Below are positions 30,233 to 46,442 of a DNA stretch of 64,000 nt, one piece after another. The stretch's first letter is position 1. Each line of letters opens with the position of its first letter. The position numbers and the translations under genes were made by a program. The notes below the pieces were generated by a model. It saw nothing but the letters and a program-made list of their open reading frames with translations, did not search any database and was not told the origin of the DNA. Origin of the DNA: a virus (taxonomy: Duplodnaviria > Heunggongvirae > Uroviricota > Caudoviricetes); the IMG/VR virus record IMGVR_UViG_3300001525_000208, positions 15,019-79,018 of that record. The stretch is one strand, 5' to 3'.

Positions 30233-30270
30233 TTTTCAATGTTGTAAATTAAGCTGTTAAGCTGGTAAAA

Positions 30271-30300
30271 ATAAAAAAGACGGAACTATAAAGTCCCGTC
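30271..30300 (-). terminator. Rho-independent terminator for gene 30337..30888
   Basis: The minus strand reads GAAGACGGGACUUUAUAGUUCCGUCUUUUUU: a GC-rich hairpin followed by a U-run. Confidence 0.6.
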
Positions 30301-30336
30301 TTCAATTCAATTATTATATTATAAACGTATTGGTAA

Positions 30337-30888
30337 TTAAGCTTTTACACCAAATACCATGTAAGTTCCAACGTGATGTGCCTTTGAAGGAGTATAATTA
30401 AGTTCAAAAGCTACAGGTTCACCTTCAGTTACTTGCTTCGTGTAAGTACAGATGAGATCACCCTTGAAATCACGCTTTGTATAGAGTTCCTTTGCCATAC
30501 GCTCAGCAACAGTCTTGGTTTCAGTGGTAGAAACAAGTACCTTACCGGTAGCCTTATCCATAACTTGATAAGTAGTAGTGTACTTACGCTTACCCTTTTC
30601 ATTCTTACGATTTACTACAGTGTAAGGACGTTCACGAGTATCAGCAACAGCCGCATCAATAGTAACTGCAAAACCTACATTAGGAGCATTCTTAGACTTC
30701 TTTGCAAGATAGTCAAGACAGAACTGCTTTACATCAGCTTCAGTAATAGCACCTGTCATTTTGCTACGCCAATTCTTGTAAGCTTGGGTAGCGTCACCTT
30801 GAATGAAGAAAGGTGCCTTTTCAAGTGCTTCAGCCTTAGTAGATCCAGTTACTTCGAGTTTCTCAAAATTCATAAAATTTGCATTCAT
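30337..30888 (-). CDS. Hypothetical, probably abundantly expressed protein (higher GC and codon usage than its neighbours)
   Basis: Local GC is about 38% against a background near 28%. It has a strong terminator and an upstream palindrome gtcatc-N5-gatgac at 30927-30944. Confidence 0.45.
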   Translation of the reverse strand: MNANFMNFEKLEVTGSTKAEALEKAPFFIQGDATQAYKNWRSKMTGAITEADVKQFCLDYLAKKSKNAPNVGFAVTIDAAVADTRERPYTVVNRKNEKGKRKYTTTYQVMDKATGKVLVSTTETKTVAERMAKELYTKRDFKGDLICTYTKQVTEGEPVAFELNYTPSKAHHVGTYMVFGVKA

Positions 30889-31396
30889 AATTGTAAAAAT
30901 TTAAAACATTAATTCATATTGTCATCTTTGTGATGACTTCATAAAACAAATATACTATCTAGAAATTAAAACCCAAAATCCATAAATTTTTTTAGGATTC
31001 TGAATTCTCATTTATTGATTCTTATACTAATATATACCTCAAAAATTAGAATTCCAAATTCTTAAAAATGAAAATTTATTTTAAAAAGGAATATATTTTA
31101 AAAGTATTTCTCTTACTGTATTTACCATTTCCTTAGGTGGAACTTCAAAAGTGGGAAATTCTTTACATCCGTAAGAGAAATCTTCGCATACTACAGCAAG
31201 TCCTTTTATGAAATCTTCAGGTAAGAAATCATTTTTAAGAATATTTCTAATAATCTGATAATGTGTAACTCCTGATTTCTTTTCTTTAGCTTTATTTGTT
31301 ATATAATTTATTAAAGATATTAAAGCAAACTTAGTTTTAATATCTGTATTAATAAAACCCAATGAAAAATAATCAGAATACATTTGCCTCATTTTA

Positions 31397-32431
31397 TCAT
31401 ACGGAGGCGAAGTGCTTATATCTGGAGTCTGTTGCAACATAATATCCTACTAATTTAGTTAAATTTATAAATTCATGAAATCCTTTCAAAAATAACTTTT
31501 TAGTCATAGGTACTACTTTAGTATAATATTGAGGAATAGTAGAAACAACTAAGAAATTACTCTTAATAGTAGGATTTTCTAAATTATAAAATTTAGAAGC
31601 ACATAATGAAAGCAAATAACTATACATTCCCATTTCTCGATAATAACGAAAAGTATAAATTGCTTCATTAAAGATATTTACCATTTTTCCTGTTGTCTTT
31701 AAATCATTAACTGTAATAGTATTAGTATCACAATCAATCGAAAAGTTATCTAATTTAGATTTCAACTTTAAAATAAATGGTTCATAATCTTCTACTTGTA
31801 CTTCTACATCTAATAAGATTGTTTTCTCATTAGCAACTATAGGCTCTTGAATTAAACCTGTAGGATGTAATAGTTCTTGAATCTTATTATTAGAATCTAA
31901 TGCTTTTAAACAAGCTGAAAGTCTTTCTCTATTCTTCGGATCAAGATAAATTGGTATTCTAGAATCAATATTTGAAGATTCAAATTCGTATCTATTTTTC
32001 CAATAATCTTTACATTTTTCTTTTAGAGCTTCTAATTTAGAATTATTAAAAGTAGTCTTATAATATTCATATTTAGAAGCTGCTTCAATTAATTTAGAAT
32101 CAGAAGGAAATTCACCTGTTTTATTATAAACATAATCTGCAATATATCCAGCTTTACTTGTTGGTCTGTCAACAGATTCACAAATAAAGAAACTTTCAGG
32201 TTGTAATACTAATTCGTGACACGCTGAACCAAAAACTAAACTGTCAGAAAAAGCATTAAAGCCTCCATTAAAGAATTTCTCAGGACTTCCATCTTGACTA
32301 GGATTAATTAAACCTAATCTAGAATTAGAAATATAATTAGAATATTTCTTAGAGAAATAAATTTCATCTGAAATATCTTCTAATTTAAGAGTTTCTATTA
32401 ACGGTTTAATTTTTATTTTTTCTAAGTTCAT
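31397..32431 (-). CDS. Hypothetical protein
   Basis: 344-aa ORF. Confidence 0.4.
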   Translation of the reverse strand: MNLEKIKIKPLIETLKLEDISDEIYFSKKYSNYISNSRLGLINPSQDGSPEKFFNGGFNAFSDSLVFGSACHELVLQPESFFICESVDRPTSKAGYIADYVYNKTGEFPSDSKLIEAASKYEYYKTTFNNSKLEALKEKCKDYWKNRYEFESSNIDSRIPIYLDPKNRERLSACLKALDSNNKIQELLHPTGLIQEPIVANEKTILLDVEVQVEDYEPFILKLKSKLDNFSIDCDTNTITVNDLKTTGKMVNIFNEAIYTFRYYREMGMYSYLLSLCASKFYNLENPTIKSNFLVVSTIPQYYTKVVPMTKKLFLKGFHEFINLTKLVGYYVATDSRYKHFASV

Positions 32432-32946
32432 AACAACTTCGAAAAATCATCAAAAGCTGACATCATAAATAGCTCATAAGCGTTCTCAATTTCATCAATT
32501 TTAAGACTATTTACGCGTCCTACAGGACCCCAAAATTTATTAGTGGGAGAATCCATCAACAGACATGGAATACCTTTTGTATTCAAGTCTATAAAATTTT
32601 TAATTGAGTCATCTATGAAAACATCAACTTTACCTTTTAAAGCATCAGCTTTACTTAAATGATACCCAGGAACTTGGTAAAGTGGACTAAACAAATCATT
32701 ATTGGTCAAATACTTTTTAGTCCACCTTTTATTATTTACTCTAGCGCTACAAAACAGTCTTGGTTCAAAATTTGGTAATTGTAATACAGGTAATTCTAAC
32801 CAAAAATCCCTTTCGTGTATTAAAATATTATTTACATTTCGAGTAATAGCCCAATCATATTTTGGCCATTTTTTAAATCTTTTTAGATAACCGTAATCCC
32901 AATCTGCAATTACATTATCTATATCTAAACCAATTCTTAATTTCAT
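32428..32946 (-). CDS. HAD-superfamily 5'(3')-deoxyribonucleotidase-like phosphatase
   Basis: N-terminal DxDxV motif (LDIDNVIAD) and C-terminal FIDDS. Confidence 0.55.
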   Translation of the reverse strand: MKLRIGLDIDNVIADWDYGYLKRFKKWPKYDWAITRNVNNILIHERDFWLELPVLQLPNFEPRLFCSARVNNKRWTKKYLTNNDLFSPLYQVPGYHLSKADALKGKVDVFIDDSIKNFIDLNTKGIPCLLMDSPTNKFWGPVGRVNSLKIDEIENAYELFMMSAFDDFSKLL

Positions 32947-33735
32947 TACATTAATTCAACATCCATAATTTCTCCTAAAAGAAATCCACAATCGTAAGCT
33001 TCGTCTAGAAACTCTTCCCAATCACTACAATAAGGAGTATCATGGTCTCTAGCAAATTTTGAAATGTATTTGTCTTTAGCTTCATTCATTGAACGAGCCA
33101 TAACATAATCTGTCCAAACAACATTTTCATTTAAATCAGCTACAGCTATTATATATTTATTCATATCTTAGTTATTATAAGATTTAAGTAATTCGTAGAA
33201 AAAGTTTTTATCAATCATAACCAATTCACCAGCACTGCTCATATTTACTTGGCCTTCTTTAACTTCTTGACGATTCCACATTATTACAAAAGGTTTATCT
33301 TCAAGAGGACAAGCACTTCTAATTTTAAAATAATTAGGAGTGTTGGTAGTACATTTAAGTTGACAATAGAAAGGTAATTTATTTTCTGTATCTACTAAAT
33401 CAACTTTCATATCATCCATTCTTTTGGACTGACTTCTAGATGTTACAACACCTGTGTAACCAAGTTCATTTAATTCGTGAGCTATTTTCAATTCATAGTT
33501 GTTACCTTTACTTTTAGAATAAGAACCTGAACGTCTTTTCTTTTTTGCTTTTTCTTGGTCACAAAGCGGACATCCTGAATGAGTTAATACTTTTTTAGCT
33601 ATTTGATGAACTTCTCCGTGAATAGGACATTTATAAATTATGTCTTTATCTAAACCCTAATAATTACTTTCTGAAAAATCAAATTTATCTCCGTGTTTAA
33701 GCTTTACCTTTTCAACAAAAGACTCTATAGTCTGT

Positions 33736-34740
33736 TTAGCCATTGTTTTTAAGTTTTAAAATATTTGTTTTTAAAAATTCTATTGTTTTTTCTCTTCCGT
33801 ATTTCTTATAGAAATCACTAATATCTTTAGCTTTAAAAGTATTTGGAATAAAAAAATAATTTAGTTCAGGATAAGAATGTCTTATCTTTGCTAAATTGTA
33901 TTTACCTGCTCTATCATTATCATAGTGAACTACAATATATTTGAACCGAGATTTTAAATCGTCTAATACTTTTTGTTCTAAAAATAAAGTTTCTGAATTA
34001 GGAGCAATAGCAGTAATTCCTAAAGAATAATAAGTCATTGTATCTTTCATGCTTTTAGTAATTACTAAAAGTTTACCTTCTTTAGGAAGTTGTTTGAAAC
34101 CTTGTATTTTCTTTGCAGGATAATTACCTAAAAATCTATAAGATTTTCGTTTAGGAAAATACATTCTCCATAATTCAATGTCCTTTTGCTTTCCTCCATA
34201 ATATCCGTAAATTGGACAATTTTTAGAGGAAGTACTTATTAAACTACCATTAAGAAATACGTTTTTACAAGAATAAACATTAAATTTCTTTAAAATTTTT
34301 AATGTAATACCATATTTAGACCACCATTCAAGTTCATCTTCCGAAAACTCTTTTATTTCTGCTTGTAAAAATGTACTACCTTTAGTATCTATTTCTTTTA
34401 CAGGAATAATTTTTGTTTTCTTTACAACTTGTTCTTCTATTAGATTAAAATCACTTGCAATTATTTTTAATGCTTTATAGTAAGAACAATTATATTTTTC
34501 CATTACTACATTAAAACAATTATAATGTTTATTAGTAGCAAAATCATGGAAATAAACTATCCCTGACTTAGATTTATAAACACCACAAGTAGGATTTTTA
34601 TCATCCCTAAAAGGAGAAACAAAGAGTTTTTTAGTTTCTATTGCAAAACCTAAATAATGACTTAATATAGTTTCTTGATTGACTTTAGATAATATAAAGT
34701 CTTTAGTGATTTTTGATCCTATACTAAAATTAAAATCCAT
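33736..34740 (-). CDS. DNA primase (Toprim domain)
   Basis: N-terminal Cys/His zinc-binding region. Toprim-like LLVITKSMKDTMTY ... VVHYDNDRAGK (DxD). Confidence 0.55.
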   Translation of the reverse strand: MDFNFSIGSKITKDFILSKVNQETILSHYLGFAIETKKLFVSPFRDDKNPTCGVYKSKSGIVYFHDFATNKHYNCFNVVMEKYNCSYYKALKIIASDFNLIEEQVVKKTKIIPVKEIDTKGSTFLQAEIKEFSEDELEWWSKYGITLKILKKFNVYSCKNVFLNGSLISTSSKNCPIYGYYGGKQKDIELWRMYFPKRKSYRFLGNYPAKKIQGFKQLPKEGKLLVITKSMKDTMTYYSLGITAIAPNSETLFLEQKVLDDLKSRFKYIVVHYDNDRAGKYNLAKIRHSYPELNYFFIPNTFKAKDISDFYKKYGREKTIEFLKTNILKLKNNG

Positions 34741-34825
34741 ATCTTTCTAATTAGAATTTTAAATTTAGTATTATTTTAAAACAAAAACAAGGATACTAAA
34801 TAAGTACCCTTGTTTTATATTTTAA

Positions 34826-35602
34826 TTAGAGAATGCTATCAAAATCAATATCACTAGTATCTGTGGAAGTTACTTCAGGTACTAATACAGTATCAGCATT
34901 TGGAGCTATAGCTGACATTACAGTAGGCTTAGCCGTCTTATATGCGGCAGCTTGACGTGCTTCATAATCAGAGAATTCTACATTATCTCCAATAAAATTA
35001 TTACGAACATAGCAATTACCTTCCTTACTAATACCACAAACGTTAGGAATTTGTGCGTAAACAGTACCGTTATTATTACGTCCAGTAAGTTTCAATTTAG
35101 TTTTAGCACCTTTCTTAGCATTTGCTACAGTAAGTACAAGCTTGATAAAGTCTTCCATCGTTTTAATCTTCGCAGCTTGGATTTTAAGTTTTTCATATCC
35201 CGAAGGATTAACTACAGCTGCTACCTGAAGCAATGTCCATTTAAATTCCTCAAATCGAGAAGGCATTTCATATTCATGACCATCCTTGTTAGTAATAACC
35301 TTACGAGTAATATCTTCTTGAGTTGAAGGAATAAATAGATTAGTAGAAAATTTACCTTTCTCTCCACTAAAGCTAAGCTTAATTGTATTATAAGTAGCTT
35401 CAGGGTCTTTCTTACCTTTCATTGTAACTTGTTCCAATCCATCAAATGTTACATCATAAATGTCCCAAGGTTTAAGAGCACCCGATTTACTAATTGCTGA
35501 ATTTTCACTAATACCTCTAAAATCAAGATTAAGATCCATGTTAAATATATTTTTAAAATTAAATATTAAAATCAAAAGAAGAAATTTCTGTAGTATCTTC
35601 AA
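34826..35602 (-). CDS. Hypothetical protein with a hydrophobic N-terminus
   Basis: 258-aa ORF. The N-terminus MKILQKFLLLILIF is signal/TM-like. Confidence 0.35.
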   Translation of the reverse strand: MKILQKFLLLILIFNFKNIFNMDLNLDFRGISENSAISKSGALKPWDIYDVTFDGLEQVTMKGKKDPEATYNTIKLSFSGEKGKFSTNLFIPSTQEDITRKVITNKDGHEYEMPSRFEEFKWTLLQVAAVVNPSGYEKLKIQAAKIKTMEDFIKLVLTVANAKKGAKTKLKLTGRNNNGTVYAQIPNVCGISKEGNCYVRNNFIGDNVEFSDYEARQAAAYKTAKPTVMSAIAPNADTVLVPEVTSTDTSDIDFDSIL

Positions 35603-36121
35603 CTAAATCATCTAAATCTAAATTATCAACAAACTCGTCAATTACCTCAGGTTTAGCAAGATTTTCATCTTCTATAATTTCGGGTTCTTTATCACCTTTA
35701 AGAATGAAAATACCCTTTCTATTATCGTGAGGAATTAAATCAAATGTTGTACCATATTCTACGAGTTGATCATGTGATTTACCTCTATAAGCAACGGTAT
35801 TAGATTTGCTTAAACGATTTCCTCCCTTAGTACCAAAACTTTCATCAGAACCAATAATAGGTATAAATTGATTACCTTGTTTATCATATTTAATATCTAT
35901 TCTATCATCAGGCTCTACGTTTAAAGCTTTAAGAGCAGCTGAATTAAGCTCATACTTAGTATCTAAAAGTATAAGTTTCGGATTTGGATCTGTATCCTCT
36001 ACTTTAGATGTTTTAGACTTAGAAGTCTTTTTGGTTTTAACAGACTTGACTTCTCCTGTTTCTGTATTTACTACATCAAATTCACCTGTTGTAGTATCTA
36101 CAATAAGATTAAATGTCAATT

Positions 36122-36820
36122 TCATTCGTCTTCGCCGTTTTCAAATTGATTAATTCTATCAAGAACCGATTTCATATTAGGTTCAATATACTTATCGGGG
36201 AAACAACCTTCAGTTGAACGACAAGTATCATAACCATCAGTACGAGTTTTAAATCGATACTTGATAGATTCATCATCATCAATATATCGTTCTGCATACA
36301 AAATATATGAGAACAAACCATCAATATTAACAGTACTGTTTAACAGTTTACCTGTGGTGTAAAGACGCCATTCAGGTTCCATATCAGTACCATTGTTTAT
36401 AATATGAGAAATGAGAACTACATTAAGATCATCTCTCAGATTTTGTGCAGATTGAATCAAATCATAGTAATTCTTTGCACTAACTGAAAACTTTTCATAG
36501 CCTTTAGTTAATGCATTAACCATAGCTTCATTACTCATAAGATAGTTACAATCATCCAAAATAATCGTTTTAATTTCTGGACGTGTATTTGAAATTATTT
36601 GCAACATCTGAGTAATTTGAGGATAACTATTACTAGTAAGCCAATTTCCAGTAAGTTTCTTATCTTTTACTGCAACTTTTTTGTATTTTTTTCTAAAACC
36701 AGGAATCTGCAATTGCTTATTAGTACAACTAATAATAAATGTAGATTCAGGTTCCAAATACTTCAAAGATGTTGATTTACCAGTATTAGAAAGTCCTCCA
36801 AGTGCAATAAGATTGCTCAT
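36122..36820 (-). CDS. P-loop NTPase (Walker A/B)
   Basis: GGLSNTGKSTS (Walker A) and IILDDCN (Walker B). Confidence 0.45.
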   Translation of the reverse strand: MSNLIALGGLSNTGKSTSLKYLEPESTFIISCTNKQLQIPGFRKKYKKVAVKDKKLTGNWLTSNSYPQITQMLQIISNTRPEIKTIILDDCNYLMSNEAMVNALTKGYEKFSVSAKNYYDLIQSAQNLRDDLNVVLISHIINNGTDMEPEWRLYTTGKLLNSTVNIDGLFSYILYAERYIDDDESIKYRFKTRTDGYDTCRSTEGCFPDKYIEPNMKSVLDRINQFENGEDE

Positions 36821-37164
36821 TATAAAATAAAATTTAATTGTTGTTTATTTATATCATCTTGTTTTTCATTTTCTTGTTTAATCTCAGAATTTACTTCATC
36901 TTTTTCAAGAATCCAATTAGGATTCTTGTATTTATCATAATCATAGATTTCATCAGGTAAAGGAAGTTCTTTAAAATAATTAATCCAACCGTAAAAACTA
37001 CATCCGATTTCAACATCACAGTCACCGAAACGATTCTTTAAAACCATAATGCTTCGGAATACACTTTCTAATTGTTCTATGTTATATTTGCGATAAGTTT
37101 TAAGCGCGTCGCGAAAAGGATTATATAAAGCAATCATAACATTACTGTCTTGTACGGTATTCCC
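36820..37164 (-). CDS. dnaB: DnaB-like replicative helicase, exon 2 (C-terminal region following motif H4). The 5' boundary is uncertain.
   Basis: QDSNVMIALYNPFRD...FRSIMVLKNRFGDCDVEIGCSFYGWINYF matches the DnaB C-terminal region (DADVVMFLYRDEYY ... IIAKQRNGPTG ... FTRFE). The frame is open from 37200. The track ORF starts at a TTG at 37179. Confidence 0.6.
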   Translation of the reverse strand, partial: GNTVQDSNVMIALYNPFRDALKTYRKYNIEQLESVFRSIMVLKNRFGDCDVEIGCSFYGWINYFKELPLPDEIYDYDKYKNPNWILEKDEVNSEIKQENEKQDDINKQQLNFIL

Positions 37165-37993
37165 TGTATCTTTAGCCAAATTTGTTATCTTAAAGGCTCT
37201 TTATCCTTTAATTCTATACTTTTATTTATATGTATAGTTCAGACTATATCTTTCATTCATTTTATATTCTCACGAATTTTACTCTGAACAGTGCCCCGCT
37301 TTCGTGGATGATTTTATAGCCTCGTCTTTCTCGTTAGGCATCACATCTAGTCGTTTAGCTTTTTCCTCAATTTCTTGAGGGTTTAGCACAAGATTGTCCT
37401 TTTCAGGAGTTTCCCTGTTTAACGGAGTTTTATAATGACACTTATAACTTATATTTCATGCAAGATACTATATAAGGCTCTATCAATCTTTTAAATTTAG
37501 GATATTCTTTACTTGGAATATATACAAGATTATCGGACTTATTATTTAAAGTTATAAAAATATTAAATTTAACTTTAAACATTTCTTTTATTAATTCTAA
37601 CTCTTGTTTAGAAAAATTATTAGTACATAACATACATCCTCCATAAGGATTACATTTATACCCATCATCCATATACCAGATAGCTAGTCCAAGAGGTTCT
37701 ATTTTAAATAAGTCATCCTTATATACTGTTTTCACTGGACGATACCAATTATAAAACATAGCATTTAATGATATAGAGGATTTAGTATAAAAAGAATAAT
37801 TATAATATTCAGGATTTTTTCTTCCGTTTGGTGGAAGTTTGTTATTTTTTCTAATTTTTGCAATAGTAGATTCAGAATCACCTGAAATTCTGGATATTTC
37901 AGAATCTTTTAATCCTTGTTCATAAAATTCTAAAAATTGATAGATTTCAAAATAGTTTTTCTTAAATTTCTATAAATTAATTATTTTATCATT
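37165..37993 (-). mobile_element. Group I intron in the dnaB-like helicase gene with a LAGLIDADG ORF in its 5' region. Boundaries are approximate.
   Basis: Minus-strand elements:
- S AAGATATAGTCTGAAC (37237-37252)
- R-like ACGACTAGA (37346-37354)
- GTTCAGAG (37283-37290)
- P-like AATTGAGGAAAAAG (37358-37371)
- P9-like hairpin CTATAC...GTATAG
The helicase is broken exactly in motif H4. Exons 1 and 2 are in different frames, which excludes an intein. Confidence 0.6.
37442..37759 (-). CDS. LAGLIDADG homing endonuclease (intron-encoded). Its frame is continuous upstream through an HTH-like segment to the TAG that ends helicase exon 1.
   Basis: LGLAIWYMDDGY is a LAGLIDADG motif. The upstream in-frame extension (37760-37969) encodes ...LKDSEISRISGDSESTIAKIRKNN (HTH-like). 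Confidence 0.6.
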   Translation of the reverse strand: MFYNWYRPVKTVYKDDLFKIEPLGLAIWYMDDGYKCNPYGGCMLCTNNFSKQELELIKEMFKVKFNIFITLNNKSDNLVYIPSKEYPKFKRLIEPYIVSCMKYKL

Positions 37994-38740
37994 AATACTA
38001 AAGGCCGATTTTCCCTGTTTGAATCTCTCGATATTACCTTGTTCGCGATTAGCTTGTTGGATTACGACAGGACTTATCTTACATTTCTCTCTTAGTACTA
38101 CTAAGTATGCAGATAAGTTATCGATTTCTTTCTTTAAAGTATTCCCTTGCTGAGGTCTTATTAATCCTATATGATCTATAATTACATTATATATCAAATT
38201 AGGATTATAAGGAGTATAAATGAGTCGGTTTTCACTTTCGGAAAAAGTTCCCATTTCCTCAAGTCGTTTCTTTAAAATTGAATAAACTGTATTAGCATTT
38301 ACTTGTTTATCGTAAATTTCCAGTTTACTTTCAATTTTATCTATCCAAGGTTTACACTTTTTGATTAATTCGTAATATTCCTCAGATAATACATAATCTC
38401 GTTCTCTAGATAGTATCTTTTTATAAGATAGTTCAATTCCATAGGTTTCAAATAAATACATAGACAATAACTTTATAAACAACGAAGTTGCATTCATTTC
38501 TAGAGAGAAATAAATAATTTTAAAGTCATCATCGTCAATATGAGCTTGTAAAGGTTTAAAAACATACGAGTAAAGTGCAAAACTCGTCTTACCTGCACCC
38601 GAATTACTCAGGATAAGTGTGTAAGTTTCACGAGTTACACCATCTATTATGCTTTCTAACTTAGGAAGACCCATAGGTATACCTTTATTTAAACCTAATC
38701 TACCTCTTTCAATTTCATTAAAGACACTGTCTGAAATCAA
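37994..38740 (-). CDS. dnaB: DnaB-like replicative helicase, exon 1 (RecA-like ATPase core)
   Basis: Walker A LSNSGAGKTSF, Walker B/H2 IIDHIGLI, and H3 VVIQQANREQGN. It stops within H4 (KSAFSIN...) at the intron boundary. Confidence 0.7.
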
Positions 38741-39354
38741 AGCATTTTAATTGTATTAAAGTTAATATTAGCTATTTCCCCGTTTTTAAGTGCTTCTAAT
38801 TCATTCCACCATTGATTTATTACAAATGAACTAATAGAGCAATTTAAAAATGTAGTATTATCTTTAGCCCATTGAACTAATTCTATAATTTTAGAATGAG
38901 TTTCAGGATTCCATTTAATACTTTTACCATAAAAACGAAAGAAATCTTCTAAAGAATTAAATTTCTTTGCTACTCCTCTTAATGCTACTAAAGATTCTCC
39001 AATATAACCAAATGCAGGATATATTTCAAAAAGTTCTTTTCCTAATTCAAAAGAAGCTTTATAGAATCGTTTTACAAAGGCTTTATTTAATTGAACTTCT
39101 TCCAAATCAAAAGCTGTGCCTGCTTCGGGAATTTTATAACTTTTTAGAATAACACCTTTAGATTGTAAAGATAAAAGAAGATCTCTAAATTTAATATTTA
39201 CTTTGGTGAGTATATTATTAAATTTAAATAAATATTCATCTTCATCTTCTTTAGCTAATAGAATAGTTCTAATAGCAGTCAATTCAGTAGGAGTAAGATT
39301 ATAAAAATCTAATAAATTTAATTCTTCGTCAAAATTTAAATTAAAAGTTTTCAA
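38737..39354 (-). CDS. Hypothetical protein
   Basis: 205-aa ORF, start-stop overlap with helicase exon 1. Confidence 0.4.
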   Translation of the reverse strand: MKTFNLNFDEELNLLDFYNLTPTELTAIRTILLAKEDEDEYLFKFNNILTKVNIKFRDLLLSLQSKGVILKSYKIPEAGTAFDLEEVQLNKAFVKRFYKASFELGKELFEIYPAFGYIGESLVALRGVAKKFNSLEDFFRFYGKSIKWNPETHSKIIELVQWAKDNTTFLNCSISSFVINQWWNELEALKNGEIANINFNTIKML

Positions 39355-39553
39355 GCAGTTAAAAGTTTATATTATTACTTCTAACTGTAATAGTTTAATC
39401 TCGTTTAAGAGTGTTTAATTACATATGGTTCAAAAAATTCACGTTCCAATTGTTTCAAATCGGATTCAATTTTATCTATATTATAATAAAAAGGTAAATC
39501 TTTAATATTAATATTAGATAAATAAATAAGTTTTAATAATCTTTCTTTAGTCA

Positions 39554-40807
39554 TCAGAATCTAAATACCATTTCTTTAAGTTTCTTACGATAAGGTTTAG
39601 GCTCATTTCCTAATAATACTTGTTCAAGTCCTTCTTCATCGATAGTTATATAATTTGCAGATTTATGACTATTTTTGAACCAAGTTACTTCTACTGTATC
39701 ATCAAGAATAAGATTAAATATAGATGCTATCTTTCCTTCTTCAAATCGAATTACACGACCTCTTCTTTGAGAAGATTTAATTTCAGATGAATCTAATCCT
39801 AATATAATTGCTACTGATAATCCTTTTACATCTAAACCTTCATTAGCTTTTTGAACTGTATTTAATACTCCTGTTTTAGAAGTATTAAATTCAGTAATCA
39901 TATTAGCTGCTACTTTTTTACTTAGACTTCCCTTATAAGTGTTACCTATTCCAATAGAATCTGCCATTTTAACACTATTAGAAAATGTAATTATTTTTCT
40001 ATCGTTATAATGTTGTATAATTTTTCTAGCAATTTCTATTTTCTTAGGATGCTTATTTATAAAAGATTTTCTATCTCGCATTGCTCTATTAAAATTAGCG
40101 GAATAATAATTAATAGATGCTAGTAGCTTAGTGCGTTCTTCAGGAGTTCCTTTAGGACAAAGCATATCACGATATGCATTTCTAAGTTTCCATCCATCAG
40201 AACCGAGTAGTTTCATACAAAAATTAAAATCATAATTAAAAAAAGCAAATGCTTCATTAAATAACCTATTAGAATTGTTGTATTCTTCAATGTTATCTGC
40301 TTTTAATAATACAAGATATTCTTTATAAGTAGAAATCCAATTATTAGAAGTAGCTTCCATTAAAGTGATTTCGTCAACAACAGGACAATAAGCTTTTATG
40401 ATTTTTTCTTTTCCATCAATTCGATTTAAAGTAGCAGTAAGACACAATATTAATCTATAGTGTATTTTTTGAAAAATTTGTTGAAATGTATCAGCGGCAG
40501 CACGATGTGCTTCATCAATCACTAATAAATCACAATAAGATTCTCTTTTAATAGCACTATTAATAACTAATATTTCTACATTTAAACTTAAACCCCATTC
40601 ATCTATTTGTGTTGTCCACTGTTCTTGTAATGTGGTTGTGGGAACAACTATAATTACTCTAAATGAAGGGTATTTTTTAAGAACTGAATTTATACAATTC
40701 AGTGCAATTCGGGTTTTGCCTACTCCCGTTGGAGCAATAACTGTTCCGCAACATTTATTTTTAATCCAAGATACTCTACATTGTTCTTGTCTTTCACTTC
40801 TCGTCAT
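39554..40807 (-). CDS. SF2 DEAH-box helicase
   Basis: Walker A VIAPTGVGKT, DEAH box LVIDEAHR, and a motif VI-like QRRGRVIR. Confidence 0.65.
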   Translation of the reverse strand: MTRSERQEQCRVSWIKNKCCGTVIAPTGVGKTRIALNCINSVLKKYPSFRVIIVVPTTTLQEQWTTQIDEWGLSLNVEILVINSAIKRESYCDLLVIDEAHRAAADTFQQIFQKIHYRLILCLTATLNRIDGKEKIIKAYCPVVDEITLMEATSNNWISTYKEYLVLLKADNIEEYNNSNRLFNEAFAFFNYDFNFCMKLLGSDGWKLRNAYRDMLCPKGTPEERTKLLASINYYSANFNRAMRDRKSFINKHPKKIEIARKIIQHYNDRKIITFSNSVKMADSIGIGNTYKGSLSKKVAANMITEFNTSKTGVLNTVQKANEGLDVKGLSVAIILGLDSSEIKSSQRRGRVIRFEEGKIASIFNLILDDTVEVTWFKNSHKSANYITIDEEGLEQVLLGNEPKPYRKKLKEMVFRF

Positions 40808-41681
40808 CTTTCAAGGTAATACCTTTAGATTCAGCAACCAACTTAAGTTGGCGCATTCGTTCAAGCCATTGATCAATATGATATTGAACTTCTTCTTCTA
40901 GTTTAAATAGAATTTTATCTCGAAGAATTGTAAGTTGATCCTTAGTGAGTTCTGAATATTTTTTACTTTGCAATTTATACATTGCTCTGAATTCTCTATA
41001 AGTAAGACCTCCTTTAGGATTAATATGTAAAGAAATATTATTTCTAAGTTGAAGTCTAGTTTCTACAACTTTTAAACGATCAATTACCTTACCATTTTCA
41101 TCTACTTCGTGAAGATCTTTCATTTCTTGTGGAGTAAACCAAAGACCCATATTACAAAGGAAGTTATTAGTAATATGTTTCTTATTAAATGCACCTAATG
41201 CATCCAAACAAGCTTTGTAAATCATATCAATAGTAATTTCAGAGAATTCAGGAGGGGTTGTAGAAATTACTGTAATAGGAGTAGTCGCCCAAACTTCTTT
41301 AGGCAATACTTCTTTATTTTGTTCCAAGAAAGTTTTTAACGCTTGAAAATAAGAGAAACGAGGATAAGGTTTAGCATTCGTTTCAGGATCTCCTTCCTCG
41401 AGATACTTCAAATACAATTCAGCATTACAACAAGCACGTTGTTGTTTAATAAGATCTAACAAAACATAACGTCCTGGATTCTTGTTATCCTTATTATAAA
41501 GCATTGTTCTACAATGATTATAAAAAGTTTGAAGTTGTTCAGGAGTAGCATCAACAAGTTTGATTTCTTCTTGTACTCTTTGTTTATTTACAAATCTTTT
41601 TGCACTTTTCCAAATAAATGAATTAATGTCATTACGTTTGGCTTCTAAAGCTTCTGTAAGCTTATCTGCGAGAATACTCAT
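40794..41681 (-). CDS. Hypothetical protein
   Basis: 295-aa ORF overlapping the helicase start. Confidence 0.4.
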   Translation of the reverse strand: MSILADKLTEALEAKRNDINSFIWKSAKRFVNKQRVQEEIKLVDATPEQLQTFYNHCRTMLYNKDNKNPGRYVLLDLIKQQRACCNAELYLKYLEEGDPETNAKPYPRFSYFQALKTFLEQNKEVLPKEVWATTPITVISTTPPEFSEITIDMIYKACLDALGAFNKKHITNNFLCNMGLWFTPQEMKDLHEVDENGKVIDRLKVVETRLQLRNNISLHINPKGGLTYREFRAMYKLQSKKYSELTKDQLTILRDKILFKLEEEVQYHIDQWLERMRQLKLVAESKGITLKDDEK

Positions 41682-43386
41682 AATTATAAAATAATATTTT
41701 TTGTTGTTTCATTTGGTTTATCTATAAATTTTATGAATTGTATGCCTGTGTATCTATAAGGTAAGAACTTTTCACCATCGAAATACTTATCAGCACCTGC
41801 AATATGTACTTCGTATGTGAGATACCCTATATCTTCTAAATTTAATATTTTATGTTCCCAATTAGGATACATAGTACATAAGACATACTTATCATAAACA
41901 TCTTCAGTTTCTAGATTCCTAAATACATAATTAATATATCCTCCTGTTTCTTCACATCGAGCCATTAACTTTGCTAGTATTGTTGTCATGAGCTAATTTA
42001 TAAGCAGTACATCCATATTTAGCCATGTCACTAACACAATTCTCTTGTCCTTGGAAACAGGGATATAAACCACAATCTTTACAAGATCTATCCTCAAATT
42101 TTAAAACAACACCATCCTTATCTCGGATTCTAGCCATAAAATATAATAAAATACAAATAGTTAATTCAATAAAAGAATAACAATCAGCACAGAACTTAAT
42201 CCAAATCCTCCTATAGTCCAATTTCTTAAATTACGAATTTTACGTTTATTCTTATTAATAGTATTATTTAAGTTATTAATGGTTGTGTTGTTATTATTAA
42301 TAACTTGCATACATGTATTAATCTTTTCTTTTTGTAAAGAATCAGATTGTTCCCAAATATTATTAATAGATTGCAAATTAATAATTTTAGACTGTAACTG
42401 AGGAACTAATTTAACATAATAAGAATGTTCTGAAAATATTAAATTAGTTTGTTTTAATTGTGTCGGAGTTATTACAATTAAAGAGTCGTTTAGAATTTTC
42501 GGATAAATAGTTTGAGAAAAACTTACAATCGGAATCAACAGGCTGAGTAAGAATAGTACTAATGTCTTTTTTGTGTTCATACTTAATTTTAAATATAGTA
42601 CTATCAATTATATTAATAGAATCTTTAAGTTGACATCTAACCGATTGCAATGAATCGTATTTTATAGATATTTTATTTAAAGAATCTATTAATATAGAAT
42701 TATCTTGATTTGAACTATTATGATTACAACTTTTAAAAATTAAAATAACTGTAACAATAATAGCCCAAATCCAAGAAATATATTTCATTACTTATTATTT
42801 TTATAATAAGTTACCATTTTCTTTAGAAAATCAAAATCCATATTAGCAATACGCTTAATAAGATTCTTTTCGTCAGTAGGAAGTTTATCCCAACTTGCCT
42901 TTTTATTTTCAGCATCAAGATATCGATTCATTTTATCTCGATAACCTTTAATTTGAGATCCTGGATTTTCTTTAAAATATTCAGATTCTTGAAGAAGAAG
43001 TGCAGTTACTACTTTAGTATTAATCATTCCTGATTTGGTAGCATAAAGTACTGAATCTGAATTCTTTGCTCTATTATAAGCTTTAAACTTACCTACATTT
43101 TCGTCAAATTTATCTTCAGGATTACAAATTGAAAATCCAACAGATACTTTTTTAACTACTTCATCTTCAGGATCATCTTCAAAACCTTGTCCTTCAACAT
43201 AACAATCTACTGTATGATAAAGAGTAGCAAATTCTTTTTCTCCTCCTTCATAATAGTCATCGGAATAATCCTTGAATCTTTTAGGAAGAATTGTACTTAC
43301 AGCGGCAATAACAAATTTATGTTCTTTACCTTCAAAATCAATAAATGAATCAATGTGGTACTGAACACGTTCTTTAATATTTTCCA

Positions 43387-43938
43387 TTATTTTCTAGAAT
43401 TAATATAAAAATTATAAATAGAATTTTCTTTAATTAACCAAGATGCAGAATCTTGAGACATCTCAGCTATAGTTCTTGAAATAGATTCTTCTTCGCATTG
43501 TTCTGAACAAAGATTACCTTCGATTGGACCATTACCCATAATCCAATTAAATGTCATATAATCTTTAAGTTCCAATGCTTTATTAATAATATTATAAATA
43601 CTATTAGTAGTTTCTACTTCAACATCTATTGTAATATTAAAAGGAATTTGCTTGTTCTCAATATTAACGTCAATTTCTTTTACGGCAGGAAATTGAAAAC
43701 AAATGTCATTATAATTAAGAAAATCTACTATCCATTTTTGATGATTCTCTTCTTCTTTTGCTCTAAGTTTATAATATTCTGCTAACTTAGGAAGACCTTC
43801 AGTATCATAAAAATTAGCAAATGTTAAATACAAATGTTTATTGTACAATTCATTACTAATTTGATTAATAAGAAGTTCTGCTAGAGAATCGTCCATAGAA
43901 CAATATTTACGATTTGTGTCGTTTTCTATTACGGACAT
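43387..43938 (-). CDS. Hypothetical protein, possibly ferritin-like
   Basis: Weak E..H motif EEENHQKW in a predicted helical protein. The assignment is speculative. Confidence 0.2.
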   Translation of the reverse strand: MSVIENDTNRKYCSMDDSLAELLINQISNELYNKHLYLTFANFYDTEGLPKLAEYYKLRAKEEENHQKWIVDFLNYNDICFQFPAVKEIDVNIENKQIPFNITIDVEVETTNSIYNIINKALELKDYMTFNWIMGNGPIEGNLCSEQCEEESISRTIAEMSQDSASWLIKENSIYNFYINSRK

Positions 43939-44464
43939 AAGGTTCTACTATTTTTAATTTATTTTTATCTATATAAGATTTAGGTGCTTGAACCCAATCT
44001 ATAAATTTACCAATGATATGATCTGATTCTTTAGTATATTTAGCATACTTCTTTATTTTTAAAGGAGTATTTGCTTTACAGTATTTAACTCCGTGTAATT
44101 CTGTCCTGTCTTTCCATATTTTGTATATACTAATCATATATACAAAACAAGGACCTTCTATTACAGAACTACCATCATTTGTTAGATAAAATGTCGCCAT
44201 TTAAATACTTAGTCAGATTCTGCAATTCTTGTCTGTATAACTTTAAATATTCATTCATATTTAAAGCATCATTCTTACGTTTATTAATACATCTATAATG
44301 TATAATTCGTTTAATTGCAGATTCTAAAGTAAGTCCGTAAGCAGCATTTTTAAACTCTTGGCGAATTTCTCCTGACCGTGAATTTACGGTATGGAGAAAT
44401 TCTAAATCCCAAAAATTACTATCATTTGATATAGGAGTAAGTCTAAAATCAGATTCTTCTATTA

Positions 44465-45250
44465 TCATCGATTAATTCCATACATAATATTTCCATTGCT
44501 AGTTACAGTAGGAACTTTACCATCCCACTTTTCAATCCACATTTGTTGAATCAAAAGAGGAGTAAGAGCTTGTTGCTTAAGTTCATTAGCTTCACGTTCT
44601 GCTTTAGCTGTTACTACAAGTTTTTGTGCTTGTGCTTCTGCAACTTTAACTTCATTAGCTGCGCGTTGTGCATCTTGAATTGCTTTATTCTTAGCATTAA
44701 CTGCATCTACAATAGTTTTAGGATAAGCAAGTCCTGATGTCATTTGTTCAAGATGAAAATTCTCTTTCTCAAGTGCTGAAGCAAGTTGCTTTTCTACAGC
44801 TGTTTCAATTGAATCTCGTTTACTTACAATTTCATCGGTAGTAAATTTATTCAATTGAATACGAAACGCATCTCTCACATAGTTGAATAGTGTAGTTTTA
44901 ATAATTTCATCTACATCTTTACGATATTTTTTAAAGATTGTAGGAGATTTACCATCAACTACTTTAAGTGAAATTGTAGGATCAACTGTAAATTCTGAAC
45001 CATCTTTAGCGTTAACAGTAAAAGGTTCATAATCTACAGTTTGTACATAAGTAGGATACTCATATACTTGTTGTGTAAAAGGATTATAAAATACAGTTCC
45101 CGATACCATTGATACTTGATCTACACCTCGATCATCTCCAAAAAGATTTACAAGAATACCTTCAGAACCAGCATCAATACGTTCACACGAAGTAAGAGAA
45201 GCTATAGTAATTGTACCTATAGCAAAGCATTTAATTAAATTTTTCACCAT
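44465..45250 (-). CDS. Predicted lipoprotein (lipobox LTSC), possibly with an SPFH/band-7-like domain
   Basis: N-terminus MVKNLIKCFAIGTITIASLTSC. A coiled-coil-rich C-terminus. Confidence 0.35.
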   Translation of the reverse strand: MVKNLIKCFAIGTITIASLTSCERIDAGSEGILVNLFGDDRGVDQVSMVSGTVFYNPFTQQVYEYPTYVQTVDYEPFTVNAKDGSEFTVDPTISLKVVDGKSPTIFKKYRKDVDEIIKTTLFNYVRDAFRIQLNKFTTDEIVSKRDSIETAVEKQLASALEKENFHLEQMTSGLAYPKTIVDAVNAKNKAIQDAQRAANEVKVAEAQAQKLVVTAKAEREANELKQQALTPLLIQQMWIEKWDGKVPTVTSNGNIMYGINR

Positions 45251-46442
45251 ACTTTTTAAAAATATAATAACTAGCGATGATATAACTTAGAAATAAAATA
45301 ATAGCAAGAGTAAGTGTTATACTACTTGCTACTTGTGTAAGAGAAGTTACAAATGTAAAGAAAACGCAAGATATAATAATGTATATAAAATAAAATATAA
45401 ATGTTTTCATATTAACAACATTTTACAGATCCTGGTTTTTTACGGCTTGCTTTCTCACGTTCAGGAAGATTATCCCACCACTTCATACAGTTTTGAAGCC
45501 ACTTGAGTTTATTCTTATACTTCATAATAAATTAATTTACCTTTTTTGTTTTGAATAGAATAAATTTCATACTTTCGTATCATATAAGGTACGATAGTTT
45601 CCATACATCTTGATATTAAAGGAGGAAAACTAGCTAACATTTGTATAAATGTTTCCGTGTTTTTAGAATCCTTTCCTTTATCTTTACAGTATTCTGATAT
45701 TAAATTTAATGAAAATTCAATATCAAAAGTACTATTTAATTGTTTAACTAATAATTTTTTATCCATTAGTCCCACCAATATCTCATTCTATATTCTCTAA
45801 TCAAATTATATAAATGCCAAATTTTTTGTTCTGCTAAAAATTCTCTTATTATTTTAGCAGAAGGAGAAAGTTCAACATTTAATTCTGAAAAATAATTTGG
45901 ATTCCAATCATTAAGTTTTCCTTCATATAAATCTTTTTCAAGAAATCTATTAATATTTTTAATATTAATAGTTTTATAATTAAAATCCATGTTCATTATC
46001 TTTTCTAATAATGAAATACATAATTTTAAATCTCTTACTATACTTTCTCTATCTGACGTAATATTAGAATTTTGAAAGTATTTTAGCATCCGCTTCATTT
46101 TATAATGTTCTATTCGTAATAGAAATCCATAATCCCAATCAAAATCTTTTCTTAGAAGTCGAGTCCACCCTCTCCGTCTTTTGTTTTTTCTCATAATAAA
46201 TTGTGTCTTTTGGAATTATTAATGTTAATGTATCGGAATCAATTATTGTTATAGTATCTTTATTTATTACAATTTTAGGATTTTGAACATTTATATAAAC
46301 TTTAAATAAATATATACTACATCCTAAACAAATAATTGCAAATAATCCAATTAATATTGAAAATATTCTTTTTTTATTATTATATAATAATGCAGCTATT
46401 ACAAACAAAAATACTCCGAATAATAAAAATAATACATTCATT

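What the first reader, a model, noticed from the sequence alone, without database searches (positions are those of the whole stretch)
36820..38740. DnaB-like helicase split inside motif H4 by a group I intron whose LAGLIDADG ORF is in frame with exon 1 through a TAG
Exon 1 has Walker A, H2 and H3 and stops at KSAFSIN... with TAG. The downstream ORF 36820..37179 encodes the rest of H4 and the C-terminal DnaB region (QDSNVMIALYNPFRD...KNRFG...). It is in a different frame, so this is not an intein. Between them lie a LAGLIDADG ORF and then the core elements P, R, S (AAGATATAGTCTGAAC) and P9. The LAGLIDADG frame is continuous with exon 1 except for the TAG. In a phage that encodes an amber-suppressor tRNA, late-infection readthrough could produce a helicase-endonuclease fusion. 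That possibility is speculative.
Basis: partly seen in the sequence, partly recalled or inferred. Interest (0 to 1): 0.7.

Follow-up and report, generated by a model that had tools for sequence, protein, structure and literature searches.

The report
Self-splicing intron with decayed endonuclease gene
The replicative helicase gene of a large gut crAss-like phage is interrupted by a self-splicing group I intron that carries a cut-down homing-endonuclease gene; the amber-codon link to the helicase frame is real but looks like a by-product of two deletions, so the case is largely ordinary for this phage group.

Summary
On the minus strand a DnaB-family helicase is split inside motif H4 (…KSAFSIND | AKDTGNTVQD…) by an 811-nt group I intron (37987..37177). 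The 5' exon ends in U and the intron ends in G. Removing the intron restores the sequence of 120 uninterrupted homologues.

Five introns at this site all form P1, with compensatory changes. The guide sequence lies after the intron ORF, so the ORF sits in the P1 loop.

A TAG 15 nt inside the intron is followed, in the exon-1 frame, by 175 open codons (HTH plus one LAGLIDADG domain). The phage encodes tRNA-CUA and reads TAG as a sense codon, probably Gln, in other genes.

Comparison with the closest full-length intron (1482 nt, 381-aa endonuclease) shows two deletions:
- 66 nt: the back-up TAA, the ATG and about 9 codons.
- 630 nt: three HTH repeats and the first LAGLIDADG domain.

The in-frame link is not conserved among relatives. 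Readthrough to a 432-aa fusion is therefore possible, but most likely incidental.

Two points keep a functional run-on reading open at low probability. The remnant shows no relaxed constraint. An independent relative fuses exon 1 in frame to the same C-terminal domain. Recoded intron endonucleases in early phage genes are already published.

The parts
37988..38740 (-). Helicase exon 1: 251 codons, TTG start overlapping the stop of the upstream gene. Contains Walker A (GAGKT), Walker B (IIDH), H3 (QQANRE) and the first half of H4 (SIND).
   Evidence: Pfam DnaB_C. Junction fixed by 120 intronless homologues. L126 has the same TTG start context.
37177..37987 (-). Group I intron, 811 nt. The 5' exon ends in U (37988) and the intron's last base is G (37177).
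37970..37972 (-). TAG, sixth codon of the intron in the exon-1 frame. It is the only stop between exon 1 and the endonuclease remnant.
   Evidence: The same leader and TAG occur in L136 and L137.
37445..37969 (-). Endonuclease remnant ORF, 175 codons, with no start codon of its own before ATG 37759. HTH about 37844..37939. Single C-terminal LAGLIDADG domain 37445..37834, with motif LGLAIWYMDDG at 37661..37693.
   Evidence: Pfam LAGLIDADG_2 profile positions 54-168 of 168 and HTH_23. PDB I-SceI family chains match only their C-terminal half. Alignments.
37442..37444 (-). TAA stop of the remnant ORF, two bases upstream of the guide sequence. It overlaps the proposed 3-bp P10.
37925..37931 (-). 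Junction of deletion 1: a net 66 nt missing relative to L137 intron positions about 57-129. The missing stretch held the back-up TAA, the ATG and about the first 9 codons of the endonuclease.
37816..37817 (-). Junction of deletion 2: 630 nt missing relative to L137 intron positions 238-867 (HTH repeats 2-4 and LAGLIDADG domain 1). The flanks share GAAGAAAA.
37434..37439 (-). Internal guide sequence GUCAUU. It pairs with the last six exon-1 bases AAUGAU (37993..37988) to form P1, with a U.G pair at the splice site.
   Evidence: 100% paired in five introns, two compensatory pairs.
37190..37427 (-). Ribozyme core. P3 37427..37421 / 37300..37294. P4 37418..37413 / 37393..37388. P5 37408..37405 / 37400..37397. 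P6 37387..37358. P7 37352..37348 / 37246..37242. Inserted hairpins between P7 and P3' 37347..37301. P8 about 37293..37253. P9 37237..37232 / 37219..37214. P9.1 37211..37205 / 37196..37190.
   Evidence: Rfam alignment, RNAalifold, coordinates checked, pair counts.
36820..37176 (-). Helicase exon 2 (AKDTGNTVQDSNVMIAL...NFIL) with its TAA stop at 36820..36822.
62720..62794 (+). tRNA with anticodon CUA (amber suppressor). It resembles the window's tRNA-Gln(UUG) and lies just upstream of a TAG-containing ORF.

Best explanation
This is a mobile group I intron, probably of IA type, inserted in the most conserved motif (H4) of the replicative DnaB-family helicase of a large TAG-recoded crAss-like phage.

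Splicing. The RNA should splice itself. The six last exon-1 bases pair with a guide sequence 548 nt downstream (P1). The 3' end is G. Ligation gives ...SIND-AKDTG... and a normal 369-aa helicase.

The intron ORF. The P1 loop carries the remains of an I-SceI-family, multi-HTH LAGLIDADG homing-endonuclease gene. Two deletions removed (i) its start codon, with the back-up TAA of the leader, and (ii) three HTH repeats and the first nuclease domain.

The TAG. The TAG 15 nt inside the intron is the usual 'gate' stop that releases ribosomes running off exon 1. It was inherited from the full-length ancestor. Because the first deletion is a multiple of three, the remnant now lies in phase behind that TAG. 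While TAG acts as a stop, ribosomes fall off, the intron folds, and helicase is made. Once the phage's tRNA-CUA decodes TAG, ribosomes on unspliced RNA would run 176 more codons to the TAA that abuts the guide sequence. This would yield a 432-aa fusion and probably hinder P1 formation.

Shown: gene structure, splice junction, RNA pairing, the deletions, TAG used as a sense codon.
Inferred: self-splicing, the timing of suppression, and that the fusion is an incidental by-product.
For: Junction and restoration of the conserved helicase.

Group I core: Rfam E = 8.6e-10. 21 of 58 pairs compensatory in 3 introns. On five introns, 87.6% of cells paired against 36-46% for slid controls, 18 compensatory pairs, and 0 of 500 shuffles reaching the observed values.

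P1 in five introns: AAUGAU/GUCAUU (window, L137), AACGAU/GUUGUU (L084), GACGAU/GUCGUC (L001), GAUGAU/GUCAUC (L134).

Mobility:
- 78 of 80 IMG/VR relatives lack the intron.
- A 92.7% identical relative (L126) is intronless. Mismatches against it are about twice background, 12-14 per 100 nt, within -100..+200 of the site, which resembles co-conversion.

Decay of the endonuclease:
- Only the C-terminal half of I-SceI-like enzymes is matched.
- Full-length homologues are 381-389 aa.
- Deletions of 66 and 630 nt against L137.
- The ATG and back-up TAA are present in L136 and L137.

The in-frame link is not conserved: L084 and L136 are out of frame, L001 and L137 are separated from exon 1 by TAA.

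TAG as a sense codon:
- 14 in-frame TAGs in 1..3075(+), 4 in 62958..64000(+), 5 in 60946..62199(-).
- These positions align mostly with Q or TAG in relatives.
- tRNA-CUA is present.

Literature:
- A gate stop just after the 5' splice site is the rule, and ribosome entry into an intron harms splicing (PMC3073962).
- Zeta-group crAss-like phages (145-192 kb) combine dense introns with TAG or TGA recoding of late genes (PMC7886860).
Against: - The remnant shows no sign of relaxed constraint. Window versus P0136: dN/dS 0.09 at dS 0.77, with 7 window-specific against 5 P0136-specific amino-acid changes. All family-invariant residues of the C-terminal domain are kept.
- Both window deletions are multiples of three.
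- An independent relative (P0158 / L134, seen in three contigs) also has exon 1 fused in frame to just this C-terminal domain. All three frame-preserving outcomes together have a chance of about 1/27, before allowing for ascertainment and the small sample.
- The Rfam score is below the family's gathering threshold.
- No RNA data show splicing.
Confidence: 0.7

Rival explanations
1. The cut-down protein (HTH plus the C-terminal LAGLIDADG domain) is still functional, for example as a splicing helper (maturase) or a DNA- or RNA-binding factor. It would be made only as a run-on from helicase exon 1. In this phage its synthesis would be gated by the amber suppressor, tying an intron protein, and perhaps the shut-off of helicase splicing, to the switch in the phage's genetic code.
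For: - There is no start codon of its own, yet 175 codons stay open in a 28% G+C genome.
- dN/dS is 0.09-0.11 with no significant acceleration, both in the window and in L134.
- The 66-nt and 630-nt deletions keep the frame.
- An independent in-frame exon1-C-domain fusion without any stop occurs in P0158 / L133-L135, from at least two samples.
- A C-terminal fragment of the LAGLIDADG maturase I-AniI is reported as sufficient to promote splicing (Downing et al. 2005, RNA 11:437, listed in the references of PMC2647301).
- Full-length endonuclease genes of this intron family often carry in-frame TAGs: L139 11, L001 6, L141 1.
Against: - Only two truncated examples are known, and both were found in ways that favour in-frame cases.
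- Intact young remnants are expected anyway, because older ones are quickly deleted.
- The TAG and its position were inherited from full-length relatives, where readthrough adds only 21 residues.
- The closest full-length relatives (L137, L084) have no TAG in the endonuclease gene.
- To my knowledge no maturase is known for any phage or bacterial group I intron.
- A fusion to two thirds of a helicase has no evident use.
Confidence: 0.15
2. The remnant is translated on its own from the internal ATG at 37759 as a 105-aa single-domain LAGLIDADG protein. It would dimerise, as I-CreI does, and still cut intronless helicase genes, so the intron would remain autonomously mobile.
For: - ATG 37759 opens a 105-aa ORF holding the whole C-terminal domain, with the motif aspartates intact.
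- Single-domain LAGLIDADG enzymes act as homodimers (established knowledge).
Against: - That Met is a conserved internal residue of the full-length enzymes (L084, L001, P0136), not a new start.
- A homodimer of one half of an asymmetric monomer would need a near-palindromic target, and the helicase site is not one.
- This form would lack the HTH region.
- Every full-length relative needs four HTH repeats and both domains.
Confidence: 0.07
3. The insertion is not removed at the RNA level. The helicase would be a pseudogene, or would be made as two separate polypeptides.
For: - The Rfam score is below the gathering threshold.
- The related intron in L001 gives no Rfam hit at all.
Against: - Exon 2 has no start codon of its own outside the intron.
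- Both exons are as conserved as in intronless relatives.
- P1 and the core helices co-vary across five introns.
- The helicase is a core replication gene of these phages (PMC7886860).
Confidence: 0.03

Closest known systems
Phage group I introns with homing-endonuclease ORFs (T4 td/I-TevI, nrdB/I-TevIII; the intron-rich Zeta and Delta groups of crAss-like phages)
   Same: - A self-splicing intron in a highly conserved motif of a DNA-metabolism gene.
- Sporadic distribution among close relatives.
- A gate stop just inside the intron.
- An endonuclease ORF whose 3' end touches ribozyme elements.
- Decayed endonuclease genes, as with the defunct I-TevIII of T4.
- Zeta-group genomes of 145-192 kb with up to 14 introns and recoded late genes (PMC7886860; PMC3073962).
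   Different: - The ORF sits in the P1 loop, so the guide sequence is 548 nt (about 1240 nt in full-length copies) from the splice site.
- The endonuclease is an I-SceI-like LAGLIDADG enzyme with four N-terminal HTH repeats.
- The gate stop is a codon that the phage itself reads as sense in other genes.
Recoded intron endonuclease in an early gene of TGA-recoded 'Agate' phages (Borges et al., bioRxiv 10.1101/2021.08.26.457843)
   Same: - An intron endonuclease gene inside a standard-code early gene carries the reassigned stop codon.
- The authors already proposed that in-frame stops hold back endonuclease synthesis until late in infection.
- Relatives of this intron show the same thing with TAG: L139 11, L001 6, L141 1 in-frame TAGs.
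   Different: - Here the reassigned codon is TAG rather than TGA.
- In the window itself the single TAG lies in the leader, ahead of a start-less remnant, rather than inside a complete endonuclease gene.
Fungal mitochondrial group I introns whose LAGLIDADG ORFs are fused in frame to the upstream exon (endonuclease/maturases such as I-AniI, bI3, bI4)
   Same: - An intron ORF continuous with the upstream exon.
- A LAGLIDADG protein.
- For I-AniI, the C-terminal fragment is reported as sufficient for maturase activity (Downing et al. 2005, listed in PMC2647301).
   Different: - The setting is a phage, with coupled transcription and translation.
- Continuity needs suppression of one TAG.
- It arose by a recent deletion and is not conserved among homologous introns.
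- There is no evidence of RNA binding or of proteolytic processing.

Membership tests
Group I intron (Rfam RF00028) | Conserved core P3-P9 with the P7 pseudoknot | tested here: met
   Rfam gives 45.3 bits, E = 8.6e-10, below the gathering score of 50. On five homologous introns, 87.6% of cells pair against 36-46% for slid controls, with 18 compensatory pairs. P7 GACUA/UAGUC is invariant.
Group I intron (Rfam RF00028) | 5' splice site after a U that forms a U.G pair with the internal guide sequence (P1); 3'-terminal G | tested here: met
   Exon AAUGAU pairs with guide GUCAUU (37439..37434). All six pairs form in five introns, with two compensatory positions. The intron ends in G at 37177.
Group I intron (Rfam RF00028) | Precise removal restores the host reading frame | tested here: met
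   The spliced sequence ...KSAFSINDAKDTGNTVQD... equals that of 120 intronless homologues. The DnaB_C match lengthens to profile positions 1-246 of 255.
Group I intron (Rfam RF00028) | Self-splicing with a guanosine cofactor | not testable with these tools
   This needs in vitro transcription and splicing, or RNA from infected cells.
Subgroup IA of group I introns | Extra hairpins P7.1/P7.2 between P7 and P3' | tested here: inconclusive
   A 47-nt insert (37347..37301) lies at that position and folds into a hairpin of -6 kcal/mol. Covariation in it was not examined.
I-SceI-like monomeric LAGLIDADG homing endonuclease (Pfam PF03161) | Two LAGLIDADG domains in one chain | tested here: not met
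   Only profile positions 54-168 of 168 are matched. PDB chains 6x1j and 1r7m match only their residues about 116-227. The first domain (IIGSxLGDG...) is absent.
I-SceI-like monomeric LAGLIDADG homing endonuclease (Pfam PF03161) | A translation start of its own | tested here: not met
   There is no in-frame ATG, GTG or TTG between the TAG and ATG 37759. The ATG of L136 and L137 falls within the 66-nt deletion.
I-SceI-like monomeric LAGLIDADG homing endonuclease (Pfam PF03161) | Motif acidic residue and conserved residues of the retained domain | tested here: met
   LGLAIWYMDDG and the C-terminal MKYKL are intact. All 11 invariant columns are kept.
DnaB-family replicative helicase (Pfam PF03796) | RecA-like core with Walker A, Walker B, H3 and H4 | tested here: met
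   DnaB_C scores 58.6 bits against a cut-off of 27. PHROG 19 'DnaB-like replicative helicase' matches at 2.6e-23. It is 25-32% identical to crAss-like 'replicative DNA helicase' genes.
Stop-codon-recoded (TAG to Gln) crAss-like phage | Suppressor tRNA-CUA plus genes with in-frame TAG at positions that are Gln in relatives | tested here: met
   tRNA-CUA at 62720..62794. There are 14, 4 and 5 in-frame TAGs in three long ORFs. TAG columns align with Q 93 times, TAG 84 times and K 57 times. Assignment to the Zeta group rests on genome size of relatives, gene order and the literature, not on a phylogeny.
Intein | An in-frame insertion without stops, with Hint splicing blocks | tested here: not met
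   The insert is 811 nt (not a multiple of 3), contains stops in the exon frame, and gives no Hint-domain hit.
Programmed exon-intron ORF fusion (mitochondrial type) | In-frame continuity of the intron ORF with the upstream exon, conserved among homologous introns | tested here: not met
   L084 and L136 are out of frame. L001 and L137 are in frame but blocked by TAA and have their own ATG. Only the window (through a TAG) and L134 (no stop) are continuous, and both are deletion derivatives.

The most novel reading that the evidence does not exclude
The start-less C-terminal LAGLIDADG domain is a retained, functional protein, for instance a splicing helper. It would be translated only as a run-on from helicase exon 1. 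In this phage the run-on would be gated by the amber suppressor, so the switch in genetic code would both turn on an intron-encoded protein and place ribosomes on the guide sequence, shutting off helicase splicing. That would be the first maturase-like or code-gated intron protein in a phage.
Probability: 0.12. Interest if true: 0.7.

Novelty: new member of a known kind. Interest (0 to 1): 0.35.

Why it matters
The practical value is for annotation. In large recoded crAss-like phages, core genes appear as fragments. This case gives an exact splice junction, the guide-sequence pairing and the ORF-in-P1-loop layout for a helicase intron that recurs in gut metagenomes.

Conceptually it is a clean example of a conflict. 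The stop codon that normally keeps ribosomes out of an intron is one the phage itself decodes as an amino acid in other genes. Together with relatives whose endonuclease genes hold up to 11 in-frame TAGs inside a standard-code early gene, it extends to TAG-recoded crAss-like phages the published idea that recoding delays endonuclease synthesis.

It also offers a simple system, TAG versus TAA at one position, to test how translation and splicing interfere. If the remnant proved functional, it would show a homing endonuclease being domesticated in a phage.

Tried and rejected
- Rfam at gathering threshold, and a whole-window E-value scan, did not report the intron. Only the local scan did. The L001 intron gives no Rfam hit even locally.
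- An exact look-up of the 256-aa exon-1 product found no record. The window's own genome seems absent from the collections.
- The first endonuclease protein search found only distant relatives (49% identity or less). The junction-spanning query was needed to find the close full-length genes and the fusion P0158.
- My first reading of the 5' end (ATG changed to ATT plus a 10-nt frameshifting indel) was wrong. L136 and L137 show a single deletion of about 66 nt instead.
- An alternative junction that I first guessed from sequence similarity (…SAF|KITNLAKD…) was rejected by the homologue alignment. The similar GCCTTTAAG stretch is the 3' strand of P9.1.
- PHROGs gave nothing for the two TAG-containing ORFs, so their 'late or structural' nature is inferred, not shown.
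- An intein and a two-polypeptide split helicase were considered and rejected (see the membership tests and rival explanations).
- RNAalifold also paired the guide sequence with the 3' splice-site region. I did not pursue this possible P10-like or competing pairing.
- The representative-library search gave many short C-domain proteins. The two I checked (P0215, P0217) are gene-caller fragments of TAG-containing full-length endonuclease genes, not further truncated remnants.
Full report
**What is in the sequence.** The gene lies on the minus strand. ORF 38740..37970 (256 aa) matches Pfam DnaB_C over profile positions 1-182. The ORF 37179..36820 holds the rest of the helicase. A search with the joined exons found 488 homologues. 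The best 120 are uninterrupted proteins of about 360-370 aa, many from contigs of 150-210 kb. All of them read KSAF[ST]IND-AKD[ST]GNTVQD across the break. This fixes exon 1 as 38740..37988, the insert as 37987..37177 (811 nt) and exon 2 as 37176..36823. The 5' exon ends in U and the insert ends in G, as a group I intron requires. 811 is not a multiple of three, so an intein is excluded. The spliced 369-aa protein matches DnaB_C over positions 1-246 of 255 and PHROG 19, 'DnaB-like replicative helicase'. The break falls inside motif H4 (ND|AKDTGNTVQDSN). This follows from the known DnaB motif ...DLRESGSIEQDAD....

**Is it a group I intron?** Rfam does not report it at gathering threshold or in whole-window scans. 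A local scan gives Intron_gpI at 37219..37484(-), 45.3 bits (gathering score 50), E = 8.6e-10. The conserved P7/P9 stretch also matches intron regions of crAss-like and Clostridium phages. Stronger evidence comes from four further introns at the same helicase site:
- L001, IMG/VR, 1505 nt.
- L083/L084, ENA assemblies, 1479 nt.
- L137, 1482 nt.
- L134, 570 nt.

On an alignment of the five, the structure P1, P3-P9.1 plus the P7 pseudoknot forms 87.6% of possible pairs. The figure is 36-46% when partners are slid by 1-3 columns. 18 of 50 pairs carry compensatory double changes, against 3-6 in the slid controls, and 0 of 500 shuffles reach the observed values.

P1 is especially clear:
- Window and L137: AAUGAU / GUCAUU.
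- L084: AACGAU / GUUGUU.
- L001: GACGAU / GUCGUC.
- L134: GAUGAU / GUCAUC.

All six pairs form in each intron. The guide sequence (37439..37434) lies after the intron ORF, so the ORF occupies the P1 loop. The ORF's TAA (37444..37442) sits two bases upstream of the guide. A 47-nt insert between P7 and P3' suggests subgroup IA, but I did not test that.

**The TAG and the ORF behind it.** In the exon-1 frame the intron reads KIINL, then TAG (37972..37970). It then runs 175 codons without a stop, to TAA at 37444..37442. There is no in-frame ATG, GTG or TTG before ATG 37759. The 175 residues match Pfam LAGLIDADG_2, but only profile positions 54-168 of 168, and weakly HTH_23. Solved I-SceI-family structures match only with their C-terminal halves.

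**The amber suppressor is real and in use.** ARAGORN and Rfam find a tRNA with anticodon CUA at 62720..62794(+). It resembles the window's tRNA-Gln(UUG) in the acceptor and D arms. Treating TAG as a sense codon joins fragments into long frames:
- 1..3075(+): 14 TAGs.
- 62958..64000(+): 4 TAGs, directly after the tRNA.
- 60946..62199(-): 5 TAGs.

In five IMG/VR relatives of the first protein, the TAG columns align mostly with Q (93) or TAG (84). One relative has no TAG at all. Apart from the exon-1 frame, only two minus-strand ORFs of 150 aa or more end in TAG. One is a piece of the TAG-containing 60946..62199 gene. The other (58646..59146) was not examined. The helicase is 25-32% identical to 'replicative DNA helicase' genes of crAss-like phages, and the gene order is that of their replication block. 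Zeta-group crAss-like phages are described as 145-192 kb, very rich in group I introns, and recoded (TAG to Gln or TGA to Trp) mainly in late genes (PMC7886860). The window fits that description, although I did not build a phylogeny.

**How the in-frame link arose.** Full-length endonucleases of this intron family are 381-389 aa. They have four HTH repeats and both LAGLIDADG domains (Pfam LAGLIDADG_2 positions 1-168 in L084). The closest is P0136 on L137, 88% identical.

L137, and the short contig L136, share the window's leader exactly, AAAATAATTAATTTATAG.... Their exon-1 frame continues past the TAG for 21 codons to a TAA. The endonuclease ATG follows.

Aligned with L137, the window intron lacks two blocks:
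- A net 66 nt. This held the back-up TAA, the ATG and about nine codons.
- 630 nt. This held HTH repeats 2-4 and LAGLIDADG domain 1, and is flanked by GAAGAAAA on both sides.

So the TAG is inherited. It is the ordinary 'gate' stop that most group I introns place just after the 5' splice site to keep ribosomes out (PMC3073962). The deletion then put the remnant behind it in phase.

Among relatives the phase relation varies:
- L137 and L001: in phase, but blocked by TAA.
- L136: out of phase, with a T-run one base shorter.
- L084: out of phase.

My earlier reading of the 5' end was wrong and is superseded.

**Mobility.** Of 80 IMG/VR loci with this helicase, 78 are uninterrupted at the site. 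L126, from a Logan assembly, is 92.7% identical in DNA over 3.3 kb and has no intron. Mismatches against it rise to 12-14 per 100 nt within -100..+200 of the insertion point, against roughly 5-6 elsewhere. One other variable patch lies 1.3 kb away. This pattern resembles co-conversion of exon flanks during homing, but I consider it suggestive only.

**Most likely mechanism.** While TAG acts as a stop, ribosomes leaving exon 1 terminate 15 nt into the intron. P1 forms over 548 nt, the intron splices, and a normal helicase is made. When tRNA-CUA is active, ribosomes on any unspliced transcript would continue for 176 codons to the TAA next to the guide sequence. The product would be a 432-residue fusion: 251 helicase residues, KIINL, probably Gln, then the 175-residue remnant. 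These ribosomes would probably also cover the guide sequence. That would be expected to reduce splicing, as shown for I-TevI when its translation is deregulated (Gibb and Edgell 2010, cited in PMC3073962). I regard this as an incidental consequence of the deletions. The timing of suppression and the self-splicing itself are inferred, not shown.

**What argues for something more.**
- The remnant shows no relaxed constraint. Against P0136, dN/dS is 0.09 at dS 0.77. With L084 as outgroup there are 7 window-specific and 5 P0136-specific amino-acid changes.
- Both window deletions keep the frame.
- Protein P0158 (L133-L135, at least two samples) comes from the L001 lineage. It is a helicase exon 1 fused in frame, with no stop at all, to just the same C-terminal LAGLIDADG domain, in a 570-nt intron. 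Its dN/dS against L001 is 0.11.
- A C-terminal fragment of the I-AniI maturase is reported as sufficient to promote splicing (Downing et al. 2005, listed in PMC2647301).

Three frame-preserving deletions have a chance of about 1/27. But the sample is two lineages. Both were noticed partly because they are in frame. Old neutral remnants would not survive to be seen. I therefore give a functional run-on protein about 0.12-0.15.

**Comparison with what is known.** Group I introns with homing-endonuclease genes in conserved motifs of phage replication genes are classical. Their density in large recoded crAss-like phages is published (PMC7886860). The idea that a reassigned stop codon inside an intron endonuclease gene delays its synthesis has been stated for TGA-recoded Agate phages (bioRxiv 10.1101/2021.08.26.457843). 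Relatives of this intron show the TAG version clearly. The endonuclease genes in L139, L001 and L141 carry 11, 6 and 1 in-frame TAGs and no other stop, inside a helicase gene that itself has none. Those in L084 and L137 carry none. The window is thus a new member of a known kind. Its particular points are the ORF in the P1 loop, the guide sequence abutting or overlapping the ORF's end, and a gate stop that is a sense codon in the phage's other genes.

**Verdict.** Novelty is that of a new member of a known kind, and interest is moderate to low (0.35). The most novel reading not excluded is a retained, run-on-translated, suppressor-gated intron protein.

Noticed in passing
window 58137..58228 (-): RAGATH-1 hammerhead ribozyme, 65.2 bits (gathering score 56.3), inside the minus-strand tRNA block.
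   Followed up: no
window 56990..57062 (-): A tRNA-like gene (Rfam tRNA, 57.4 bits) for which ARAGORN reports a four-base anticodon 'ttat' in an eight-base loop. It could be a quadruplet-decoding or otherwise unusual tRNA.
   Followed up: no
window 1..3075 (+), 62958..64000 (+), 60946..62199 (-): Long frames with 14, 4 and 5 in-frame TAGs. TAG positions align mostly with Gln or TAG in relatives, and one relative (L128) has none. PHROGs gives no match, so their functions are unknown.
   Followed up: partly
window minus-strand block, about 3100..60900: Apart from the exon-1 frame of this intron, only two minus-strand ORFs of 150 aa or more end in TAG. One (61000..61461) is a piece of the TAG-containing 60946..62199 gene. 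The other (58646..59146) was not examined.
   Followed up: partly
L084 3289..4574: A second intron in the same helicase, at ...SIMVLK|NRFG.... It carries a GIY-YIG-type ORF with in-frame TAGs and an apparent frameshift. Protein P0196 ends at the same site.
   Followed up: partly
L139 about 1800..3400; protein P0189: A further insertion site seven codons downstream (…AKDSGNT|V…). L139 has introns at both sites, leaving a 21-nt micro-exon between them. Its endonuclease gene holds 11 in-frame TAGs.
   Followed up: partly
L132 (MT835492.1) about 1646..2022: In a more distant faecal phage the helicase is interrupted inside Walker A (…SSGIG | KSSAALY…) by about 375 nt. This could be an ORF-less intron.
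   Followed up: partly
L133, L134, L135 (protein P0158); L134 intron 2132..2701: Helicase exon 1 reads without any stop into a C-terminal LAGLIDADG domain, as far as a TAA overlapping the guide sequence. The intron is only 570 nt.
   Followed up: yes
proteins P0215, P0216, P0219; L139: In several relatives the endonuclease ORF runs past ...KYKL into ...HSKTPLNGE..., which is the translated P3/P4 part of the ribozyme. The ORF therefore extends into the catalytic core.
   Followed up: no
L003 2383..4969: Three Rfam group I intron hits (84.9, 75.6 and 45.2 bits) within 2.6 kb of a 17-kb viral contig.
   Followed up: no
window 37434..37441 with 37174..37178: RNAalifold pairs the guide sequence (GUCA) with the 3' splice-site region (UG|GC), with changes that keep the pairing in the three introns compared. 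This may be a P10-like or a competing pairing.
   Followed up: no
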